In this document: positions 13,586-56,970 of the stretch, piece by piece | How positions within the stretch are numbered: the stretch's first letter is position 1 | How the letters are laid out: the number at the start of each line of letters is the position of its first letter | Virus record (IMG/VR): IMGVR_UViG_3300042923_000319 | Location: 1 to 64,000 of that record | Strand: one strand, 5' to 3' | DNA from: a virus | DNA length: 64,000 nucleotides | Made by a program: the position numbers and the translations under genes | Notes under the pieces: generated by a model | Database searches by the model: none | What the model saw: the letters and a program-made list of their open reading frames with translations, nothing else | What the model was told of the DNA's origin: nothing

Positions 13586-14785
13586 CTATGGTGTAATCGA
13601 TGGTGTAATGAAATCACTCTCAAATAAATCTGCTGACTTCTGCTCTGCGAAACTAATGTAATGAGCATAGGTATCTAAGGTTATCTGCACACTAGCATGT
13701 CCAAGCCTTAATGACACTGTTTTGATATTAATATTGTTCCCAATGAGCTTCGTTGCATGTGTATGTCTAATACTATGGAATGTTATTTTTCGTTCTATTT
13801 TGGCACTACCGCATGCAACTTGGAAAGCTCTTAGAATATTCCTTGGTTGTATACAATTGCCAGTAACGGTGTGAAATACATATTTAGACTTTGGTGACTC
13901 ACGTTTCTTATAGATTTCCTTTAGCTCAAGCAACAGGATCGTCATCGAGTGAGGTATCAGAATATTACGGATTGACTGTTGTGTTTTCGGAAGTCCTTCT
14001 TTTAGTCCATCCCCAGGTACATATGATATATTATTATTGATAAATATTCGATTTTCCTCTGGGAAGAACTGTGACCACCTAAGTCCAGCCATTTCACCCT
14101 CACGAATGCCTGTACAGTATGCAAGCATATAGATTACATAGGTTAGCCAGCCAGTTTTCTGTTTAGATTCTTTGTATTGATCAAATACTCCCTTGGTGTA
14201 CTTTAGTATCGCCTTATGCTCATCACTAGAAATAACAGTGATATTGCCAATAGTACCTCTTTTGCTCTTAAAGCTCTTACAGGCAGTCACAGGGTTGTCT
14301 ATGACGGTTCCCTTGGTTACAGCCAGTGTAAACATATTATTCATTATGGTTCTATATTTGGTAACAGTGGATTGGCTAAGATTCCCTTTAATAACCAAAT
14401 TTGACAAGTAGAATTCTATTGATTCAGTGTCTATCTTGCGAATATCATCGAAGTCAAAGTGCTTCCCTATATACTTTGATATTTCCTTGTAGTCAAAGGC
14501 TGTCTTAGGTTTCATGTGTATAGCAGCTACTTTGTTATCAAGGGAATCCTCCCAGAGTTCACGTAAACTCTTGAATGTTATTTTCTTGCGAGAACTTATG
14601 GTGGGCAATTTGTTTTTCTCTTTAAGGTTCTGTAGTAACCTCAGTTCTCTCTCAGCTTCAGTTTTACCATTGCGAGTTTTAGTGATTTTTCTACGCTTAC
14701 CATTTTGTGGTGATAGTTCTACAACAGCTTGCCATCGTCCATCTGGTAGTTGTCTAAGAAACCCAAGTCCTTTAGTGCCACTCAT
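13586..14785 (-). CDS. int: Tyrosine integrase
   Basis: GIREGE, HSIRHT, RLGHAS, TY catalytic motifs; N-terminal arm-binding domain; adjacent to attP. Confidence 0.95.
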   Translation of the reverse strand: MSGTKGLGFLRQLPDGRWQAVVELSPQNGKRRKITKTRNGKTEAERELRLLQNLKEKNKLPTISSRKKITFKSLRELWEDSLDNKVAAIHMKPKTAFDYKEISKYIGKHFDFDDIRKIDTESIEFYLSNLVIKGNLSQSTVTKYRTIMNNMFTLAVTKGTVIDNPVTACKSFKSKRGTIGNITVISSDEHKAILKYTKGVFDQYKESKQKTGWLTYVIYMLAYCTGIREGEMAGLRWSQFFPEENRIFINNNISYVPGDGLKEGLPKTQQSIRNILIPHSMTILLLELKEIYKKRESPKSKYVFHTVTGNCIQPRNILRAFQVACGSAKIERKITFHSIRHTHATKLIGNNINIKTVSLRLGHASVQITLDTYAHYISFAEQKSADLFESDFITPSITP

Positions 14786-18597: not shown

Positions 18598-19173
18598 GGG
18601 CTAACCACAGCCCTTCCCTTTGAGGGAGCATTAAAATACGAAGGAGACAATAATTATGAACAAAGAAGAAATCAAAGCACAAATCATCGACATCTTAAAT
18701 GATGCTAAAATCACTACTGCAGAATGCAAAGAAATTCTTAAAGATTTAAACAAGACAATCGATGGTGCGCTAGGCAAAATCCCATTTAATATCAAAGGAG
18801 AGTAATTATGACGCCACAAGAATTCAAAGAACAACTAGATGAGTTTATGGATAAAATTAAAGAGCTTAGAGGAGTGCTTAGCTTAATTGATAAAGGCTTA
18901 AATTTACTTGATGATAAACTGAATGATAACTATTCGCTTTCTGATAATTTTGCGATGATGCATTGTCATACTCGCCGAGATATGCTTAGAGAGCGCAATA
19001 GTATCCGTAGTAGTCTCAAGGAATACGAAAAAATTATCCAACGGTTAAAATCGACTCTCTGAGTTAACCTGTGGTGATACTTTATAACATCACTAGATAA
19101 CTTGTAAGTATAACACAATAAAAACGCTTAGAACGAGCGTGAGACATCTTAGAATTGAAACGGAGGAATATCG

Positions 19174-19848
19174 ATGGAATTATTCAAGGTAAAAATAAAA
19201 GGTGTACGCGAATTACGCAAAAGTAAAGACTATACGGAAGAATTAGATGAGTATGCTGGTGAAACATCGGAAGTCATTAGAAAGTACACAGGTAACACTA
19301 GAAGAGAATTCTATAAATTAACAGTAGATGATGGTTACTGGGCTTGGGGTATGGATATGGTGGATTTAATAGAACCATCGCACTCCATCACAATCACCTC
19401 AGATAGACACAGAAAAACAACCGCGACCTACAATGGTAAATCCGCAGTAGCTAAATGTAATCCAAGCGACACATTCGATATCTTCAAGGGTACAAAGTTA
19501 GCATTGGAACGCTTAGAAGCAGCGGAGAACTTTAAGCCACATTTGGAATGCCAAGGAAAATCTTATGGTGTCTTAGGAACACCTACAAAAATCAAGGATG
19601 AACTAGGAATACCATTAAAAATTGGTGATATTACTACAGTGTACGATAAATATCATCAATCAAACTGTGGTGATGGTGTAATTATCAATGATGGTAGTGG
19701 TGATTATGTCAGTGGAATACGCTACGCATGTAACAAAGACGGAACAATTTATTCTGAGTGGTTAATCATTAAAAAGCAATCACATAACGAAGTAACCGAA
19801 GATGAGGTTGATGAGTATCGCTACATCAGAACCCCTCGCTTATCGTAA
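19174..19848 (+). CDS. Hypothetical multi-domain phage protein
   Basis: AVAKCNPSDTFDIFKG motif common in phage proteins; GGAGG RBS. Confidence 0.6.
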   Translation: MELFKVKIKGVRELRKSKDYTEELDEYAGETSEVIRKYTGNTRREFYKLTVDDGYWAWGMDMVDLIEPSHSITITSDRHRKTTATYNGKSAVAKCNPSDTFDIFKGTKLALERLEAAENFKPHLECQGKSYGVLGTPTKIKDELGIPLKIGDITTVYDKYHQSNCGDGVIINDGSGDYVSGIRYACNKDGTIYSEWLIIKKQSHNEVTEDEVDEYRYIRTPRLS

Positions 19849-30183: not shown

Positions 30184-30696
30184 ATAGCCTCCAAGCGTAG
30201 AAGTCTCAAAACACTCTACAATGGTATCCTATATGACTCCAGAATGGAAGCACAGTACGCGGAGCATCTAGACAAGCTCATGAAAGCTGGAGAAATACTA
30301 GAGATTAAACGTCAGATACATTGTCAGATCATCCCTAAGTTCGAGAAGTACGGCAAGAAATTCCGTGGCTCCCAATATACTCCAGATTTCTGGGTGAGGT
30401 ACAAAGATGGCTCGACCGCGTACATCGAAGTCAAAGGTATGTCTGATACAGCAGCAGATTTGAGAAGAAAAGCCTTTGACTCACAGTATCCCGATACACT
30501 ACTTTGGGTTACTGGTGTTGACTCAGTGAATAAACGATGGACACGGTGGCTTCCCTATGATGATGTAGTGAAGATGCGTAAGGCGAAACGGAAAGAAAAG
30601 GCATCTAATAGTGCCAAAGTTGAGACGTCGGATACCTTTGTTTACCATGTAGACCCTAAGATAAGCAAAAGAAAAAAGAATGTGAGGAAAAGCTAA
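30184..30696 (+). CDS. DUF1064-like endonuclease / resolvase; probable ATA start
   Basis: YTPDF...IEVKG; the conserved NGILYDSRMEA N-terminus lies upstream of the first ATG. Confidence 0.7.
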   Translation: MASKRRSLKTLYNGILYDSRMEAQYAEHLDKLMKAGEILEIKRQIHCQIIPKFEKYGKKFRGSQYTPDFWVRYKDGSTAYIEVKGMSDTAADLRRKAFDSQYPDTLLWVTGVDSVNKRWTRWLPYDDVVKMRKAKRKEKASNSAKVETSDTFVYHVDPKISKRKKNVRKS

Positions 30697-41892: not shown

Positions 41893-42675
41893 TTATCCAA
41901 ATACTCTACCTATGGCATTCTTTACCTGTTTACCGCTGATATTCAAGTACATCTGCGTACTCGCCATTGATTTATGCCCCATAGCAGCCTGTATGACTGA
42001 TATTGGCACATTATTATCATTCAATGTATTAGCAAAAAGTCTCCTAAAGCTATGCATATGATATTCACCGCATCCACAGTCTCTATAGACTTCCTTGAGT
42101 GTATCTTGGATTTGCTTTATGGATAACCTACCGCGATTCGATGTGAACAATGCGTCACACGTGTTCTGACGAACACTCAGATATTTCTGTAGTGCTTCCT
42201 TGACATTTGTTGTCATTGGCTTTGCTATATCTGTGTGATTCTTTGTATCCCTAACGATAATATCGTCTTGCTTGATATCCTCCAAGTCAATCCCTGTCAT
42301 CTCAGACACACGCAAGCCCATCTCTGATGCCATCAAGAAAGCAAGACGATACTTTGGGTCGCTAACGCTTCCCAATATTTTCTGATATTCTTCCTGAGTA
42401 GGGCAGGGTTGGAGCTTGCGGTTGACCTTGAAATTCTTGATTATGTCCAGGGATTTTGGAGAGTCCTTCCTTGAGTATTTCAAGAATTGACCAAGGATAA
42501 CAAGGCGATTCTTTATAGTTACATCGGATTGACTGCGTTGGCTTTCGATGTAGCGTAGGATATCCTGTGGTTCAAACGTGCGATAGCCAGAGAATGTCTT
42601 GAGTGCTTCCATGTAGGTTTTATAAGTGTTCTCTGTGCGTGTTATGCGGATTTCATTGAGGAATTGTTGGAACAT
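41893..42675 (-). CDS. Second tyrosine recombinase (XerC/D-like)
   Basis: GLRVSE, HSFRR, MGH, TQMY; no arm-binding domain. Confidence 0.9.
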   Translation of the reverse strand: MFQQFLNEIRITRTENTYKTYMEALKTFSGYRTFEPQDILRYIESQRSQSDVTIKNRLVILGQFLKYSRKDSPKSLDIIKNFKVNRKLQPCPTQEEYQKILGSVSDPKYRLAFLMASEMGLRVSEMTGIDLEDIKQDDIIVRDTKNHTDIAKPMTTNVKEALQKYLSVRQNTCDALFTSNRGRLSIKQIQDTLKEVYRDCGCGEYHMHSFRRLFANTLNDNNVPISVIQAAMGHKSMASTQMYLNISGKQVKNAIGRVFG

Positions 42676-47297: not shown

Positions 47298-47489
47298 ATG
47301 AGCATATCAAATGAGATAAAAGGCTACATCATCACAGCAGGGCAGAGTATACAAGGCGTGGCGGGGCTACTGGGCATCACAAGGCAATCATTGTATACTA
47401 AGCTTAACAATGAGTCTATAAGGTATAAGGACGCACAAGAGATTGCTCGTTTGCTTGGCTATGAGATACAATGGGTTAAGCGTGAGTAA
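47298..47489 (+). CDS. Small HTH regulator
   Basis: IQGVAGLLGITRQSLYTKL; divergent from the early cluster. Confidence 0.75.
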   Translation: MSISNEIKGYIITAGQSIQGVAGLLGITRQSLYTKLNNESIRYKDAQEIARLLGYEIQWVKRE

Positions 47490-49100
47490 GCCTGAATGGC
47501 TCTATGAGCGTTGTTTGTTGGTTGTACTTATGATTGGCTATGTATGAGCGCTAAGTATGCGTAGAGGTAGCGTGAGAGTATATTGTCTAAATAGTAGTAT
47601 TCTTATTTAGGTCATAGTAAGCATAGCGATGTACTATGTATTACATTGATTATCATTGGTGTAGTATTGATAAAGCATAGTATGACAGTATGTGTTATAC
47701 GAGATAGCGTTAGTGCGACAAGGTGTAGTACTTGACAGGTGCATTGGATAGCATTGGTAGTTCATTGCTTTACTGTGGTAAAACATAGTAGTCATATATG
47801 ACATCATTGGTAAACTGTGGATAGGCATTAGTGTATCATTGTTGCGCTAGTGTATTAAATAGTAATATTCTTATGTAGTAACATTAGTAATACGACAAAG
47901 CGCAATTCATACCTTGATTTTAGTTAGATGTCTAACTATTATTATGTTAAAACTTGGTAAAACTGCTGTATACTGCACTACTATGCACCATAGTTATACA
48001 TTGGACTACATTGTATGCACATTGGCTATCATCATTCGCTCTATCAGTACTTAACCGCGTATAATTATAGTTATGCGAGGTAACAAACGTTGAAGTACCG
48101 CCATTGCTGCATTTGTGAGTGTTCAATGTATGTCTATGGAGGACACTTTGATAGGCGGTGGGGTGACTTTTGTGATTCCAAAGAGGGTACTTTGTTGTGC
48201 TGAGGGTACGGTATTACCCTACGCTACTCCACAGCTATATTCACTAAAATTTACCATGGAGTACCATCGAACTACATCGAATTTACCACAGATATACATG
48301 TGTTACCTATGGTATACCTATGTATGCATAGAAGGTACACTGGAGCCTTATTGTATCTACATTGGTAAGTCATTGAACTTCATTGGTATACATTGGGTGA
48401 TATTGGAGTATTGTAAACTATCACTGGGTTTACCATAAAACACTTACATAAGTGTATCATCAGAAAAACAAATGACAAAACACTGATATCAATCAGAAAA
48501 ACAAATAGCAAGTATATGGTAAATTACATAGCTCTACACCATTGATTTCATTGGGTTCATAGGTATCATAAGTTTTAACTATGGCTATCATAAAAATTTA
48601 GTATGGTAAAAACATCAAAAATAGGGTGCAAAGGTTCCTAAATCTGACCATTACTATGTAGGGGTTAAACAAGTGGTACTAGGGTATATCAATGAAGAGC
48701 TTAAGGGATACTTAGGATAACCTAAAATATAATCATAATAAATCGTAACGAGTGAAACGAGGTTACGGAGATATACGTAAACGTATATCTCAACTCATCG
48801 CTTACGCTTGAGTTATTCTTAATCAAATAAATATTGACCAGACTTAGAACAGAGCCTAAGATATACTTTGGTAAGCTTTAGTCCAATATAGTTATTCTTA
48901 TGAAATCCGCTTCGCAGTGAACATAAGTTAATCTATAGTATATTAAAGTGATTCAAAGTAACTACTTAGGTATATAACCACATCAGCTTATATTTATTGA
49001 TAATGCGTTCTAGACGAAGCGTAGCGAAGTGATTGTCATCAGACAATCTAACCCACTTTAGCTATATATTGAATACAACCAAATAAACATTTTTTAAATA
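47490..49100. other. Long non-coding region (candidate pac/terminus and origin)
   Basis: No credible ORFs; phased CATTG repeats and hairpins; upstream of the packaging genes. Confidence 0.5.
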
Positions 49101-49156
49101 CACCTTTGATAATTCATTGGTGTATTTTTTATGTTCAAAAACAGGAGGTTATAACA

Positions 49157-51738: not shown

Positions 51739-52838
51739 TGGAAGACCAATACAGACCACCGAATGTAACGTTAGAATCTTATGATTGCGGTAGATTCAAG
51801 GTATTTATCGATGGTAAACATATGGAAACTGTACAGAAATTCAACATATCTGGTGGTATTGGTGAATGTTCATTAGTTAAACTTGAGTTTCTAGCGGATG
51901 TAAATATTAAATAAATCGTTGGAGGTACAATGATACCAAAAGGTACAATCATAAAATGTCCAGAGTGTGGCACTAAACTTTATAAGTACACCGCAGATAT
52001 AACTGGTGATATGAATATGGTTATTGTACACATGCAATCAATGTTTTATTATGGTAAACAACCAAAGTTAGACATGAGTAGTTTAACAAGACAACATTGT
52101 TATAAGTGTGGTCATTCATTTGATATGCGTGATTTAGAAAGAGATGTTTACATGAAATTCAAGTACAACACGGAGGTACAATGAATAATCCAATTACAAA
52201 CCTAAGACTAGCTGCTGAAAAGTTCAAATTGGACTATGATAAACAATCATTTTGCGAAGTCGAGCTTGAATGTTACAAAAAGGGCATCGAAATAGAAGAT
52301 GACATAATCCCTACTATCGATTATATAAAAGAAATATGTAAGAAAACTGGGTATGAGCTATGGATTAAAAAGGGTGGACTTAAATTCTACAAAGCTATAT
52401 CGAGACAGACCTTTGATTTACCATTTATGTTACTCGAAGAAGGCGATATTATAACCTTTGGTACTAGTACTGGTATTTCCTATAAGTATACTGTGTTTGC
52501 TACTAATTATGTTGATGGCAGACTTAAGGTGACTGTTGAATGAGCAAGGAAGAACAAGATCGTCACAAGCGGAAAACCATAAAGAAACCACGGAATATCA
52601 AGAAATACATCAAAGAAAAGCTCAATAAACTTGAGTACATGGAGGAAATCTATGGAAAACGATGAATTAATCGAGGTTATCGATGATCTACGTGAAGAAA
52701 ATGAATACTTAAGAGATACATTGATTGTAGCATTGGTTAAACTGTCGAAATATCAGCAGGAAGAGATCGATGGCTATGATAAATACTTCGCTGGATTCGG
52801 CAATAGGTCTAACTAAGGTGTCTACTGATGTGTAGACA

Positions 52839-53105
52839 ATGTAACTGGAGTAGCTACCAGTGAGGGCGTGGCGGTAGTCACAAATACTGTGATAGCGTGG
52901 ATGGGGCAATTGCAGACTTTATTACAGACGCTGCATCGACACGGTGGCAGCGATGGTGTGCGGCGATTCGGGTTGGGGCTGTGCATATTCTAGTCTTAAC
53001 CTTCATTGGTTGACATTGCCTGGGGTTACACCTGGGTTACATAGCGGGGTGGAAATCTGCGGATGACACTTTGGATACTCGGATGCGTCTGAGTATCCTT
53101 ACGCT
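52839..53105 (+). ncRNA. Candidate structured ncRNA (about 265 nt)
   Basis: GC-rich, ORF-free, several hairpins with GU pairs, abuts tRNA-Trp. Confidence 0.55.
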
Positions 53106-53110
53106 GATAT

Positions 53111-53185
53111 GATTCGATAGTTCAATGGTAGAACAGCGGTCTCCAAAACCGTTAGATCAAGGTTCAAATCCTTGTCGGATCGCCA
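53111..53185 (+). tRNA. tRNA-Trp(CCA)
   Basis: Acceptor GATTCGA/TCGGATC, anticodon loop CTCCAAA, GGTTCAAATCC T-arm, encoded CCA. Confidence 0.9.
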
Positions 53186-53187
53186 AT

Positions 53188-53261
53188 GCTTCCTTAGTTT
53201 AACGGTAGAACGAGGATTTTGTAAATCTTTAGCGATAGTTCAACTCTATCAGGAAGCTCCA
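53188..53261 (+). tRNA. tRNA-Thr(TGT)
   Basis: Acceptor GCTTCCT/AGGAAGC, anticodon loop TTTGTAA, T-loop TTCAACT, encoded CCA. Confidence 0.85.
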
Positions 53262-53346
53262 AAATAAAACTAAATATTAACTAAGATATAAACCGAGAGC
53301 ACCAGTGAGAAATCGCTGGTGCTCTTATTAATCTAAGGAGGAAACA

Positions 53347-53604
53347 ATGTTAAAGATTGAAAAACTTCAAGAAGCTTTAGAGGCAACAAGAGGTAGAGGT
53401 AATACGACACATTTGCTAAAGTCGGTTCAAGGAACCAATGTTGACTTGTTGGTTGATACTGAATGCACTAGAGAGATTTTAGGACATACAAATGTAGTCT
53501 CGTTTAAATCGTACAGTCCCGACAGAGCATTTGTGCTAGATAACAACGTTATACAAGATGCAATTAATGAAGCATTAGAACTAATCGCTAGATTAAGAAA
53601 ATAG
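53347..53604 (+). CDS. Small protein with degenerate Walker A-like motif
   Basis: RGRGNTT...FVLDN; strong RBS; flanked by hairpins. Confidence 0.55.
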   Translation: MLKIEKLQEALEATRGRGNTTHLLKSVQGTNVDLLVDTECTREILGHTNVVSFKSYSPDRAFVLDNNVIQDAINEALELIARLRK

Positions 53605-53655
53605 CTTGAGTATATACTCCGAGGGACTCATGAGAAATCATGGGTCTTTTTTGTA

Positions 53656-53770
53656 TGCACTCAAGTGCAGAGCGTTGGGTTGATCCCCTGATGCTAGGGT
53701 GTTTGGTACGTCTCCGCTGAACACCCTAAAACAATTTTATGGAGACACAGAATAAAACGAATGGGGCGAT
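53656..53770 (+). promoter_or_regulatory. Structured leader (two stem-loops plus pseudoknot) upstream of the BRO-HNH gene
   Basis: 12-bp stem 53695-53728; loop GTCTCC complementary to GGAGAC at 53741-53746. Confidence 0.55.
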
Positions 53771-54806: not shown

Positions 54807-55346
54807 ATGACTTGTATCGTTGGCTTTATTGATAAAGGTAATGTTTATATCGGCGGAGATTCAGCGTCATCCAACCAATCAATCATAAGGACTCGCAAAG
54901 CACCAAAGGTATTTACTAATGGCGAATTTCTAATTGGCACAAGTGGTTCATTTCGTATGAGTGGCCTTATTAGATATTCATTCAATCCACCTAAATATAT
55001 TGAAGCTGCACATGGAGATATCTGTAGATATATGTGTACAGCTTTTGTTGATTCGTTACGTAACTGCTTGACAAGCGGTGGATTCGCGAAGGTTTCATGC
55101 AATGAAGAGACTGGCGGATTTTTCTTAGTTGGATTCAAGGGAAAGTTGTTCACAGTCGAGGCTGATTACCAAGTTGAAGAATGTGTTGATCAATACACTT
55201 CTATTGGTTCTGGAGAATCATACGCCCTCGGTTCGCTCTTTAGCTCAACCAAAGAAACACCAAAAGAAAAGATAGAAGATGCATTAAAATGTGCTGAATA
55301 CTTTAATCCATTCGTTAGAAGTCCATTCACAATACTGAAGATATAG
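54807..55346 (+). CDS. Ntn-hydrolase (HslV/proteasome-like) protein
   Basis: N-terminal Thr (MTCIVG), GGDS, KVF, SIGSG. Confidence 0.75.
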   Translation: MTCIVGFIDKGNVYIGGDSASSNQSIIRTRKAPKVFTNGEFLIGTSGSFRMSGLIRYSFNPPKYIEAAHGDICRYMCTAFVDSLRNCLTSGGFAKVSCNEETGGFFLVGFKGKLFTVEADYQVEECVDQYTSIGSGESYALGSLFSSTKETPKEKIEDALKCAEYFNPFVRSPFTILKI

Positions 55347-55359
55347 GAGGTGAGAACCA

Positions 55360-56970
55360 ATGGATGACATAGTACTACATGACTTATTCCTCGGTTCAGA
55401 CGAAACAAGACCAGATGAAGATCAGCCACTCAAAGAACAATGTAGATATTCACTAAAACTATTCTGTGAAACCTATCTCAAACATTGGTTCTACGCTCCA
55501 TGGTGTGGTTTTCACTTAGAAATTATCCAGATGCTCGAAGATTTAACCTTTGCTAAAACACGAAGAAAACAATACACAGCAGTGGCAAGTCCTAGAAAGC
55601 ATGCCAAGACAACCATAGTGTCCAAGGCTTATTCATTATGGCTTATATGTTACAAACATGAGCCAAACATCGTACTTATCGCTGATACCATCGGTCAATC
55701 GTGTGAGTACTTAGATGACGTTAAGAATGAGATTGAATCCAATGATTTACTCATAGCTGACTTCGGTAATCTCATGGGTAAACTGTGGAGAAACAATCAG
55801 ATCACAACGGCAAACGAAGTCACTATAACATGCAAAGGTACTGGCAGTAAAATTCGTGGGATGGCTAAGAGAGGTCGTCGTCCAGGTATTTTCATAATGG
55901 ATGAATTGGAAAATGATGAGTTCGTAGAAAACGCCAATATCCGTAAGAAACTTCGCTCATGGCTCACTAAGGCTGTCATTCCATCATCCTGTGAAACTGG
56001 TAAGTTCTTCATTATCGGAACCATCATGCATGAAGATAGTCTTTTGAATAATCTTCTGAACAGCAAAGAGTTCTCTTATTGGAAGCGATATTTTTACCAA
56101 GCAGTCCAAGAGTTCAGCGAAAGTCCTCTGTGGGATGAATGGGTAGCCATCATGGAAAACGAGGAATCCAATGATTCCGAGGAACAAGCCTACCAGTTCT
56201 ATAAGGATCACAGAGATGAGATGCTGAAGGGTGTTAAGGCTCTCTGGATGGACAACTATGATGATTACTACTATGACATGATGGTAATGAAGTGGTCTGA
56301 CCCAGATGCATTCTCAAGTGAAGAAATGAATGTCGCGATATCACCAGAAAATCAAACGTTTACCGCAGAGTTGCTTGATAGTGTTACATTCGATGATATT
56401 CCATGCAAGATAACCGAGATAAAAATTGGTGTAGACCCTAGCCTTGGCAAGAGTAAGAAAAGCGATCTATCGTCAATCTGTGCTGTAGCCAGAGGTGAAA
56501 ACGGCAAACTCTACGTTATTGACGTTGACGCCAAGCGCAGGAAGGTTGATATTCTCGTCGAGGATGTCTTTAGTATGGCTATGAAATACAATGATAAATT
56601 ATCGAAAATCAATATTGAAGCCAACGGATTGCAACATTTGTTCTTAGAACAATTTGTGATGGCTAGTGAGAAAACTGGCGTTTACTTTGCATACGAAGGT
56701 ATCAAAACAGATAGCAATAAGGAAATCAAGATTCAAGCATTGGCTCCTAAGATGAAGCAAGGCTCACTTAAGATACACCGTAGACTCAAGACATTACGCA
56801 ATGAATTACTGGCGTTTCCAAAAGGCAAGACTGATGACATCATGGATTCTGTTTGTTTGGCTATTGATGGTGCGTTCACATCTTCTGGATTCTGCTTCAC
56901 ATCATTGCCAGGATCAAGAGAGTCTCATCGACACGTAGGTATCAATAATTTTCTTAATAGGAGGAGGTGA
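55360..56970 (+). CDS. terL: Terminase large subunit
   Basis: PRKHAKT Walker A, FIMDE Walker B, IGT motif III, GVDPS and DDIMDS nuclease residues. Confidence 0.95.
   Translation: MDDIVLHDLFLGSDETRPDEDQPLKEQCRYSLKLFCETYLKHWFYAPWCGFHLEIIQMLEDLTFAKTRRKQYTAVASPRKHAKTTIVSKAYSLWLICYKHEPNIVLIADTIGQSCEYLDDVKNEIESNDLLIADFGNLMGKLWRNNQITTANEVTITCKGTGSKIRGMAKRGRRPGIFIMDELENDEFVENANIRKKLRSWLTKAVIPSSCETGKFFIIGTIMHEDSLLNNLLNSKEFSYWKRYFYQAVQEFSESPLWDEWVAIMENEESNDSEEQAYQFYKDHRDEMLKGVKALWMDNYDDYYYDMMVMKWSDPDAFSSEEMNVAISPENQTFTAELLDSVTFDDIPCKITEIKIGVDPSLGKSKKSDLSSICAVARGENGKLYVIDVDAKRRKVDILVEDVFSMAMKYNDKLSKINIEANGLQHLFLEQFVMASEKTGVYFAYEGIKTDSNKEIKIQALAPKMKQGSLKIHRRLKTLRNELLAFPKGKTDDIMDSVCLAIDGAFTSSGFCFTSLPGSRESHRHVGINNFLNRRR

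What the first reader, a model, noticed from the sequence alone, without database searches (positions are those of the whole stretch)
52839..53105. Candidate ~265-nt structured RNA between an operator site and the tRNA pair
Seen: GC-rich, ORF-free stretch with hairpins at 52929-52952 (CGCTGC...GCAGCG), 52970-53002 (GGGTTGGGGCT...AGTCTTAACCT) and 53073-53098 (GGATACTCGGA-TGCG-TCTGAGTATCC). Long-range pairs: GGGCAAT/ATTGCCT, ATGTAAC/GTTACAT and GCGTGG/TTACGC. GU pairs favour the + strand. tRNA processing would release its 3' end. Known: phage tRNA clusters host large ncRNAs such as GOLLD, ROOL and Y RNAs. I cannot match this one to a known family by eye.
Basis: partly seen in the sequence, partly recalled or inferred. 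Interest (0 to 1): 0.7.

Follow-up and report, generated by a model that had tools for sequence, protein, structure and literature searches.

The report
Folded RNA cassettes before phage tRNAs
The gap in front of two tRNA genes of an uncultured soil phage most likely encodes a string of small folded non-coding RNAs, one of which recurs nearly unchanged in an unrelated phage lineage, but whether it is expressed and what it does are unknown.

Summary
Window 52817-53110 (294 nt) is ORF-poor and has 50-52% G+C against 37.6% for the genome. It folds far better on the + strand (-107.1 kcal/mol, z -3.0) than on the - strand (-67.7, z -1.9). The three named hairpins are predicted with probability 0.91-0.98. 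Only 1 of the 3 proposed long-range pairings is in the predicted fold.

No Rfam family matches (E up to 10), and ARAGORN finds no tRNA in the gap.

The new result is a 52-nt core (52859-52910). It is 94% identical in a largely unrelated soil phage (G001) and 85% identical in that phage's relative G002. In both it lies inside long non-coding, cassette-like regions on the transcribed strand. It forms two hairpins that stay paired in 27 of 27 cells, with four one-sided wobble changes and no double compensation. A 1-nt indel excludes coding.

Contigs from soil runs suggest variants that replace the 5' part, lack the 3' domain, or lack both tRNAs.

Best reading (0.55): a string of self-contained RNA modules co-transcribed with tRNA-Trp and tRNA-Thr, not one rigid 265-nt RNA. 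Only three copies were found, so covariation is weak. Function is unknown.

The scan has noted the same kind of element before, on other DNA: 55 notes in at least 54 genomes. None of the scan's earlier windows in other genomes shares short words with this stretch.

The parts
52817..53110 (+). Whole non-coding gap (294 nt) between the ORF 52631-52816 and tRNA-Trp. It is rich in G+C and in G+U on the + strand.
   Evidence: + strand MFE -107.1, z -3.0. - strand -67.7, z -1.9. No Rfam match.
52819..52838 (+). 5' hairpin: 7 bp with a 6-nt loop. It starts 3 nt after the stop codon.
   Evidence: Pair probability 0.97. Folded alone: z -3.4, with 3 of 200 shuffles as good.
52857..52918 (+). Conserved two-hairpin block. 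Hairpin A is 52868-52881 (5 bp, GGUA loop). Hairpin B is 52887-52915, presenting a G-rich loop of about 15-19 nt (bounds depend on how far the stem extends; about 52892-52910). The 52-nt core 52859-52910 is shared with phages G001 and G002.
   Evidence: 94% identity to G001 and 85% to G002. 27 of 27 cells paired, with 4 one-sided changes. Model R1 scores 81-91 bits on the three copies only. Folded alone: z -0.7.
52929..52952 (+). Hairpin: 6 + 4 bp.
   Evidence: Pair probability 0.91-0.94.
52955..53017 (+). Long hairpin with a 12-bp distal stem at 52970-53002 that contains G-U pairs.
   Evidence: Probability 0.93 for the distal stem. 52929-53017 folded alone: z -2.5. One contig type in soil runs joins 52628 to 52975 and another joins 53020 to 53108.
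52839..53042 (+). Predicted long-range closing helix: arms 52839-52867 and 53018-53042. It is a prediction only, built from TGTAAC-like repeats.
   Evidence: Probability 0.57-0.90. It is not supported as a conserved feature: the variants separate the two arms.
53043..53105 (+). Y-shaped 3' domain: a 4-bp closing stem, a 5+3-bp hairpin and the 11-bp hairpin 53073-53098.
   Evidence: Folded alone: -26.3 kcal/mol, z -4.4, 0 of 200 shuffles as good. 53032-53094 is kept (8 differences, 2 gaps) in a variant contig that lacks the tRNAs. 53021-53107 is skipped in another contig.
53111..53185 (+). tRNA-Trp (CCA). Its 5' processing would release the 3' end of the upstream RNA.
   Evidence: ARAGORN. Rfam RF00005, 70 bits.
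53188..53261 (+). tRNA-Thr (UGU).
   Evidence: ARAGORN. Rfam RF00005, 62 bits.
53295..53334 (+). Terminator-like hairpin: 14 bp with a GAAA loop, followed by a U-containing tail. It is the likely end of the RNA-tRNA transcription unit.
   Evidence: Folded within 53262-53346: -28 kcal/mol, z -7.6. The consensus scan did not flag it.

Best explanation
The 294-nt gap is a non-coding, structured RNA region. No convincing promoter of its own was found. It is therefore probably transcribed on the + strand together with the upstream small genes and with tRNA-Trp and tRNA-Thr, up to the strong hairpin at 53295-53326.

RNase P cleavage at the 5' end of tRNA-Trp (53111) would free its 3' end. This step is inferred.

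It is best read as a string of three to four self-contained folded modules, not as one 265-nt molecule:
- the 5' hairpin;
- the conserved two-hairpin block 52857-52918 with a G-rich loop;
- the central hairpins 52929-53017;
- the Y-shaped 3' domain 53043-53105.

Soil phages appear to gain, lose and exchange these modules as cassettes, as they do tRNA genes.

The likely products are small stable RNAs of the kind T4 makes from its tRNA region (RNA C and RNA D). Their most plausible action is to bind a protein or an RNA through exposed loops, such as the invariant part of the G-rich loop. The target is unknown. This functional step is inference only.
For: Shown here:
1. No credible ORF, and G+C 13-15 points above the genome.
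2. The fold is strand-specific: -107.1 (z -3.0, 0 of 200 shuffles) against -67.7 (z -1.9). It has the lowest energy of 88 genome windows. The 3' domain alone reaches z -4.4.
3. The 52-nt core is 94% identical in G001. Whole-genome blastn between G000 and G001 otherwise finds only one methyltransferase gene, at 68%.
4. The core is 85% identical in G002. It was not found in G003 or G004, the other two relatives of G001.
5. In all three genomes the core is in the orientation of the surrounding genes and in non-coding DNA.
6. A 1-nt indel lies inside the core, so it is not coding.
7. The two hairpins are paired in 27 of 27 cells. Four pairs change on one side only, and always between a wobble pair and a Watson-Crick pair. 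On the other strand these changes would be mismatches. Slid controls give 15-70% pairing.
8. Neighbouring modules of the G001-lineage region each show one compensatory pair.
9. Cassette behaviour in four soil runs:
- a contig about 85% alike in the upstream ORF replaces 52756-53031 with 275 unlike letters, keeps 53032-53094, and joins to 53268, so it lacks both tRNAs;
- other contigs join 53020 to 53108 and 52628 to 52975.
10. T4 annotates two small stable RNAs next to its tRNA genes. A review passage states their roles are unknown (PMC3014915).
Against: - Only three copies of the core were found. No base pair shows a change on both sides, and the shuffle control cannot discriminate with three rows.
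- G000's copy is closer to G001's (94%) than G002's copy is (about 86% by my count). That points to recent transfer, so the identity may reflect little elapsed time and not purifying selection.
- The core folded alone is not unusually stable (z -0.7). G001's whole 938-nt region is not either (z -1.4).
- The whole-stretch z of about -3 is matched by 2 of 88 ordinary genome windows.
- The joints each rest on one contig per run with only 30 letters on one side. The tool warns that such joints can come from other organisms or repeats.
- No own promoter was found.
- Processing and stability are inferred.
Confidence: 0.55

Rival explanations
1. One large RNA of about 265-290 nt. A long-range helix (52839-52867 with 53018-53042) closes a four-way multiloop, and the molecule acts as a single ornate RNA released by tRNA processing.
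For: The minimum-energy and centroid folds both contain the closing helix, with pair probabilities 0.57-0.90. The whole-stretch z is -3.0.
Against: - The helix is built from short TGTAAC-like repeats. By my estimate, complementary 8-mers are expected by chance in 294 nt.
- Two of the three proposed long-range pairings are not predicted.
- The conserved core occurs in G001 and G002 without the other arm or the rest of the stretch.
- Variant contigs separate the arms.
Confidence: 0.15
2. A DNA-level element and not an RNA. It would be a cluster of protein-binding sites, such as regulatory operators or packaging or recombination signals. The shared 52-bp core would be a common binding site or a recombination patch.
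For: - Direct repeats of about 12 bp lie 29 bp apart inside the core (family D4).
- Three TGTAAC-like copies occur in inverted orientation about 190 bp apart.
- The locus lies 2.3 kb upstream of terL. In G001 the core lies between a late-activator gene and terS/terL.
- The very high identity between co-occurring phages fits recent recombination.
Against: - All four substitutions at the hairpin positions keep pairing only on the transcribed strand.
- The strong G+U skew and the 39 kcal/mol strand asymmetry have no DNA-level rationale.
- An attP reading is unlikely. G001 has neither a tyrosine nor a serine recombinase. G002's serine recombinase is 38 kb away. G000's integrases are at 13.6 and 41.9 kb.
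Confidence: 0.12
3. A spacer with no function of its own. It would be a tRNA-operon leader or recombination debris that happens to be G+C-rich and foldable.
For: - No covariation on both sides of any pair.
- z about -3 is reached by 2 of 88 coding windows.
- Variants that lack parts of the stretch seem viable.
- The element is rare: no further copy in the GenBank phages, PLSDB plasmids or the one JGI pattern scan, and only G001 and G002 in IMG/VR.
Against: - Phage genomes are compact, and a 294-nt inert gap is unusual in this gene-dense arm.
- The core is by far the most similar DNA between two otherwise largely unrelated genomes.
- A relative keeps a replacement of the same length, 275 for 276 nt.
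- There is no trace of decayed tRNAs.
Confidence: 0.1
4. A cis-acting leader that modifies the transcribing polymerase (put-like processive antitermination). Transcription would then read through the hairpins at 53295-53326 and 53686-53699 into the packaging genes.
For: - The position fits: upstream of two terminator-like hairpins and of terL.
- In G001 the core lies in a leader that starts at a TGnTATAAT-type -10 element right after a late-activator gene and precedes terS/terL.
- The two-hairpin format resembles put RNAs in outline. This is recalled, and it was also the closest-known choice of earlier notes on other phages.
Against: - No similarity to put was tested, because no put sequence was in hand.
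- G003 and G004 lack the core yet share the same gene layout.
- The core is 4-6 kb from terS/terL in G001.
Confidence: 0.05
5. A small protein-coding gene, possibly read with an alternative genetic code.
For: Under TGA=W a 124-aa frame (52828-53202) opens.
Against: - That frame needs three recoded TGA and runs through tRNA-Trp.
- Neighbouring genes are intact under table 11.
- The conserved core carries a 1-nt indel between genomes.
- The table-11 ORFs are 38-41 aa.
Confidence: 0.02

Closest known systems
T4 RNA C and RNA D (species 1 and 2 small stable RNAs of the T4 tRNA region)
   Same: Non-tRNA small RNAs encoded head-to-tail with phage tRNA genes on the same strand, with unknown function. 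The T4 record annotates rnaC (139 nt) and rnaD (119 nt) directly next to tRNA-Arg. A review passage says they are transcribed from the tRNA region and their roles are unknown (PMC3014915).
   Different: No sequence or model similarity: blastn best E 0.36 and R1 at most 4.7 bits. Here the RNA lies upstream of the tRNAs; in T4 the RNAs lie downstream of tRNA-Arg. Expression and stability are shown for T4 and not shown here.
GOLLD (RF01998) and ROOL (RF03087) large ornate RNAs
   Same: Phage or prophage context, often next to tRNA genes. This context is recalled; the papers were seen only as search listings.
   Different: The Rfam library was scanned at E up to 10 and returned no GOLLD or ROOL match. 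This element is 294 nt and modular, while those RNAs are much larger (sizes recalled).
RNA anti-CRISPRs (Racr; solitary repeat units)
   Same: Small non-coding RNA modules carried by phages that mimic a host RNA to trap host proteins (PMC10651486, abstract and passages). From memory only, hairpin B plus its 3' G-rich tail resembles the hairpin-plus-handle layout of some type I repeats.
   Different: The host and its CRISPR repeats are unknown. The Rfam scan at E up to 10 listed no CRISPR repeat family; that Rfam holds such families is recalled. No promoter was found within 250 bp, and no acr gene was recognised nearby.
HK022 put RNAs (cis-acting antiterminator RNAs)
   Same: A two-hairpin RNA in a transcribed leader upstream of terminators. 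The properties are recalled. Earlier notes of this scan chose it as closest for other tRNA-proximal phage RNAs.
   Different: Not compared by sequence or structure here. There is no evidence of antitermination.
Candidate structured RNAs predicted from IMG/VR ('DNAVirus_X', Comput Struct Biotechnol J 2023, PMC10690425)
   Same: Short motifs (29-151 nt) from phage intergenic regions found in at least three IMG/VR regions, including tRNA-like ones (passages). The 60-nt block has three IMG/VR copies and could in principle be among them.
   Different: This could not be checked.

Membership tests
Any Rfam 15 family (including GOLLD, ROOL, Y RNA/YrlA, tmRNA, RNase P, 6S, group I/II introns, ribozymes) | Covariance-model score at or above the family's gathering threshold | tested here: not met
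   The window scan at the gathering threshold found only the 2 tRNAs. A permissive scan of 52600-53350 at E up to 10 gave no match inside 52817-53110. That each family named in this row is in the library is assumed, not checked.
tRNA or decayed tRNA | Cloverleaf with a T-arm and acceptor stem, detectable by ARAGORN or RF00005 | tested here: not met
   ARAGORN finds only 53111-53185 and 53188-53261. There is no sub-threshold RF00005 match in the gap at E up to 10.
T4 RNA C / RNA D | Sequence or structure homology to T4 rnaC or rnaD | tested here: not met
   blastn (word size 7) of the 294 nt against T4 70599-71299 gave best E 0.36. Model R1 scored at most 4.7 bits on T4 66000-78000.
T4 RNA C / RNA D | Encoded contiguous with phage tRNA genes on the same strand | tested here: met
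   The last predicted pair is at 53105 and tRNA-Trp starts at 53111. For T4, rnaD ends 1 nt from tRNA-Arg.
T4 RNA C / RNA D | Accumulates as a discrete stable RNA processed from the tRNA precursor | not testable with these tools
   No RNA data could be laid on the stretch. It needs Northern or RNA-seq analysis.
RNA anti-CRISPR (Racr / solitary repeat unit) | Sequence and hairpin similarity to the CRISPR repeat of the host's system | tested here: inconclusive
   The host is unknown. The nearest cultured phages are at most 42% identical in the proteins compared. No CRISPR repeat family was listed in the Rfam scan. The resemblance to type I repeats is recalled only.
RNA anti-CRISPR (Racr / solitary repeat unit) | Own promoter within about 250 bp upstream (selection criterion in PMC10651486) | tested here: not met
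   The scan found no + strand promoter-like site between 52053 and 53110.
put-type antiterminator RNA | Two stem-loops in a leader that make RNA polymerase resistant to downstream terminators | not tested
   Only the position is compatible: terminator-like hairpins at 53295-53326 and 53686-53699. No put sequence was compared.
Phage attP core | Lies next to an integrase and matches a host gene fragment | tested here: not met
   G001 has no PF00589 or PF00239 hit. G002's resolvase-domain gene is 38 kb from the core. G000's integrases are at 13586-14785 and 41893-42675.

The most novel reading that the evidence does not exclude
The 60-nt two-hairpin block with its invariant G-rich loop is a mobile, self-contained RNA cassette that largely unrelated soil phages trade. 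It acts as a decoy that traps a host defence or RNA-processing protein, for example as a repeat-mimicking RNA anti-CRISPR. The long non-coding arrays after the late-activator gene in the G001 lineage, and the gap before the tRNAs here, would then be 'RNA moron' loci: exchangeable sets of such decoys, ended by tRNAs or tRNA-like elements that supply the processing signals.
Probability: 0.1. Interest if true: 0.8.

Novelty: new variant of a known kind. Interest (0 to 1): 0.45.

Why it matters
Phage tRNA clusters have been known since T4 to carry small stable RNAs that are not tRNAs, and nobody knows what those RNAs do.

This locus adds an uncultured soil-phage example with two useful handles. 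The first is a short core of about 60 nt that is kept almost letter for letter across two phage lineages that share little else. The second is contig-level evidence that the surrounding modules are swapped in and out like cassettes.

If the modules are real RNAs, the core is small enough for direct tests: pull-down of binding partners, structure probing, and deletion or transplantation. Those tests could show whether such cassettes are counter-defence decoys, processing signals or regulators.

If a larger alignment shows no covariation, the finding shrinks to a recombination patch in a tRNA leader.

Tried and rejected
Homologue hunting
- GenBank phages, blastn 'distant' with 52600-53350: 29 records matched, all only in the tRNA part.
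- PLSDB plasmids: no match.
- 80 IMG/VR loci around distant TerL relatives (at most 37% identity): nhmmer found nothing, and blastn found only 14-21-nt chance matches.
- TerL as a single query in IMG/VR: none.
- GTDB genomes with the TerL alignment: 4 loci at 23-29% identity, none useful.
- Closer TerL relatives exist in ENA, Logan and JGI (78% and 56-67% identity in the alignment).
- Pattern scans of IMG/VR: true hits were G001 and G002 only. L087 and L089 were chance matches inside high-G+C coding DNA.
- The single JGI metagenome scan with a 20-mer gave 4 stretches, all chance matches in 60-71% G+C DNA.
- G001's activator protein, alone and as an alignment, gave the same four records both times.
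- G001's 938-nt region against GenBank phages: no match.
- Model R1 over 1.17 Mb of held DNA and over G002-G004: apart from its three training copies, the best scores were 19.4 bits (a 36-nt stretch at a gene start in G002) and 11.9 bits.

Sequencing runs
- 6 of 6 listed holders are soil metagenomes from 4 studies, and all are marked as possible sources of this DNA.
- No RNA holder is listed, so nothing can be said about expression.
- The main contigs in 4 of 4 laid runs are identical to the window over 52500-53004. They therefore give no variation inside the element.

Ideas dropped
- An antisense target of the G-rich loop within the phage genomes. The best non-self duplex lay inside a small Cro-like ORF at 47342 and looks like chance.
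- A functional link to the one gene shared by G000 and G001, a DNA methyltransferase (phrog_757). No rationale was found.
- RNA-related enzymes in 10 large ORFs of G000: none. They are a tail protein, DnaE, an integrase, a primase, a helicase, RNR, dUTPase and unknowns.
- attP.
- Hammerhead, k-turn, D-arm and GGA-motif readings, made by eye: none held.
- A centre genome for a Bacillota-wide search could not be obtained, because control genomes carry no handles. The CRISPR-repeat idea is therefore untested.
They may list this motif.

Full report
What is there

The window is the first 64 kb of a 72.7-kb IMG/VR virus record with 37.6% G+C. On the + strand a run of small ORFs ends at 52816. A gap of 294 nt follows (52817-53110), then tRNA-Trp(CCA) at 53111-53185 and tRNA-Thr(UGU) at 53188-53261.

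After the tRNAs comes a 14-bp hairpin with a GAAA loop at 53295-53326 (-28 kcal/mol, z -7.6). Further downstream lie an 85-aa ORF, a Bro-N gene (an HNH domain is the first-stage note's label, not shown by my Pfam scan), a proteasome-like gene, and terL at 55360.

The gap has 50-52% G+C and a strong G-over-C and T-over-A skew. Its longest + strand ORFs are 38-41 aa. Reading TGA as Trp opens a 124-aa frame. That frame needs three recoded codons and runs through the tRNA-Trp gene, and all neighbouring genes are intact under table 11.

Is the fold more than chance?

- The + strand folds at -107.1 kcal/mol (shuffles -92.9 +/- 4.7, z -3.0, 0 of 200 as good).
- The - strand folds at -67.7 kcal/mol (z -1.9, 7 of 200).
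- In my own control of 88 windows of 294 nt along the genome, z averaged -0.13 (sd 1.21). Two of 88 windows reached -3.
- In that script the target scored z -2.8. Its energy (-105) was lower than that of every control window (minimum -88.5).
- So the stability is exceptional mostly because of composition. The excess over composition is moderate.

Of the three long-range pairings, only ATGTAAC/GTTACAT is in the fold.

By parts:
- The Y-shaped 3' domain 53043-53110 is the most convincing (z -4.4).
- The centre 52929-53017 is fair (z -2.5).
- The block 52857-52928 is ordinary (z -0.7).

Known families

Rfam 15 finds only the two tRNAs at the gathering threshold. At E up to 10 it finds nothing inside the gap. 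ARAGORN finds no tRNA or tmRNA there.

Relatives

This phage has no close kin in GenBank phages or IMG/VR. TerL is at most 35-37% identical to anything there.

Contigs of four soil runs, laid on 52500-53700, gave two leads.

The first lead is a set of variant contigs:
- One type (749 nt) is about 85% alike over the upstream ORF. It replaces 52756-53031 with 275 unlike letters and resumes at 53032-53094 (8 differences, 2 gaps). It then joins through 16 letters to 53268, so it has no tRNAs.
- Another type joins 53020 to 53108, so it has no 3' domain.
- A third type joins 52628 to 52975.
- Each was seen as one contig per run in 3 of 4 runs, with 30 letters on the short side. The tool warns that such evidence is weak.

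The second lead is a contig that holds only 52859-52910, in foreign flanks and at higher depth than the phage itself.

The conserved core

A 20-letter pattern from that segment found one true IMG/VR record. This is G001, a 50.9-kb phage with 34% G+C. The match is 52 nt at 94% identity, and similarity extends to 82 nt at 79%.

Whole-genome blastn between the two phages finds only this segment and one methyltransferase gene at 68%.

In G001 the core sits in a 938-nt non-coding region of raised G+C. That region starts at an extended -10-like element right after an ArpU/RinA-like activator gene (phrog_36/248). It ends in a tRNA-like element that ARAGORN does not call and that Rfam's tRNA-Sec model scores at 22.9 bits. 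Small genes, terS, terL and the portal gene follow.

Three relatives of G001 were found, with activators 73-78% identical. An alignment of the four non-coding regions shows them to be mosaics of present-or-absent blocks. The core is present in G001 and G002 (85% to the window). It is absent from G003 and G004.

Further pattern scans of IMG/VR and one of the JGI metagenomes added only chance matches in high-G+C coding DNA.

Structure of the core

The three copies differ by a 1-nt indel and 3-8 substitutions, so the core is not coding. They share two hairpins:
- Hairpin A is 5 bp with a GGUA loop (window 52868-52881).
- Hairpin B (window 52887-52915) presents a G-rich loop of 17-19 nt.

On the alignment all 27 cells of 9 pairs are standard pairs. 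Four pairs change on one side only, each time between a wobble pair and a Watson-Crick pair. No pair changes on both sides. Sliding the partners gives 15-70% pairing.

These changes would be mismatches on the opposite strand, which favours an RNA read from the + strand. With three sequences this is suggestive, not proof. By my estimate, four pair-preserving transitions have a chance probability of about 1 in 16.

A covariance model of the block scores 81-91 bits on its three training copies. It found nothing credible in 1.17 Mb of other phage DNA, in G003 or G004, or in the T4 tRNA region.

Two neighbouring modules of the G001 lineage each show one compensatory pair. That fits an array of structured RNAs.

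A caution: G000's copy is closer to G001's (94%) than G002's copy is (about 86%). The two phages also co-occur in the same soil runs. Recent transfer is therefore likely, and the identity is not by itself a measure of selection.

Interpretation

The data fit a string of self-contained RNA modules better than one 265-nt molecule.
- The core travels alone.
- The 3' domain folds well alone and is present or absent independently.
- The closing helix is made of short repeats and is split by the variants.

No own promoter was found. The element is therefore probably transcribed with the upstream genes and the tRNAs, and released by tRNA processing. This is inferred.

The nearest precedent is T4. Its record annotates rnaC (139 nt) and rnaD (119 nt) beside tRNA-Arg, and their roles are unknown (passage in PMC3014915). 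There is no sequence similarity to them.

Function is open. I commit, at low confidence, to binding of a protein or an RNA through the exposed conserved loop.

Rivals are:
- a single large RNA;
- a DNA-level site cluster;
- an inert leader;
- a put-like antiterminator;
- a small gene.

An attP reading is unlikely.

Context in this scan and in print

Earlier notes of this scan describe G+C-rich folded stretches upstream of phage tRNAs in at least 54 other genomes. One is read as swappable cassettes, and several were compared with T4 RNA C/D or with put RNAs. A look-up by shared short words finds this sequence only in its own genome.

A published survey predicted 8,495 short structured RNA candidates from IMG/VR v3 (passages of PMC10690425). 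Its motif lists are in supplements that I could not open, so I cannot say that the block is unpublished.

None could be made by sequence.

Noticed in passing
L097 3454-4390 (= G001 18610-19546); also L098, L099, L100 from 3454: The G001-lineage phages carry a non-coding, cassette-like region of roughly 350-940 nt after an ArpU/RinA-like activator gene. It starts at a TGnTATAAT-like element. In 3 of the 4 phages (L097, L099, L100) it ends in a conserved 94-nt tRNA-like element that has a T-arm and acceptor stem but no normal anticodon arm. ARAGORN does not call this element in G001 (L088, the only copy scanned), and Rfam tRNA-Sec gives 23-26 bits. Another block looks like a tRNA split by an insert of about 130 nt.
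   Followed up: partly
window 52810-52817 and 53278-53285: An exact 8-nt direct repeat (within a 19-nt repeat of 74% identity) brackets the RNA-plus-tRNA segment. It is possibly a trace of cassette insertion. A variant contig joins 53094 to 53268, close to the second copy.
   Followed up: no
window 47490-49105: A 1.6-kb stretch without long ORFs, holding many CATTGG-like repeats, lies between a small Cro-like ORF and an HNH/CapR-domain gene. It was also flagged by first-stage notes and was not studied here.
   Followed up: no
window 54807-55346: A 179-aa proteasome/HslV-like protein (Pfam PF00227, 24.1 bits against a cut-off of 22.4) is encoded directly upstream of terL.
   Followed up: no
window 53115-53196 in soil runs X1, X2, X3, X6: Summed contig depth over the tRNA-Trp gene is 95-763, against 9-30 in the flanks. 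Many loose ends run into other sequences. The conserved tRNA core is evidently shared with contigs of other organisms in these soils.
   Followed up: no
G002 30639-30674 (L107 240-275): A 36-nt stretch at the start of a structural-module gene scores 19.4 bits with the block model. It repeats the hairpin-A motif and nearby GTAGCTAC and ATGTAAC words that also occur in the window at 52839-52857. It is probably chance.
   Followed up: partly
window 53262-53346: The hairpin after the tRNAs (14 bp, GAAA tetraloop, z -7.6) was missed by the consensus terminator scan. It is followed within 10 nt by a strong ribosome-binding site for the ORF at 53347.
   Followed up: partly
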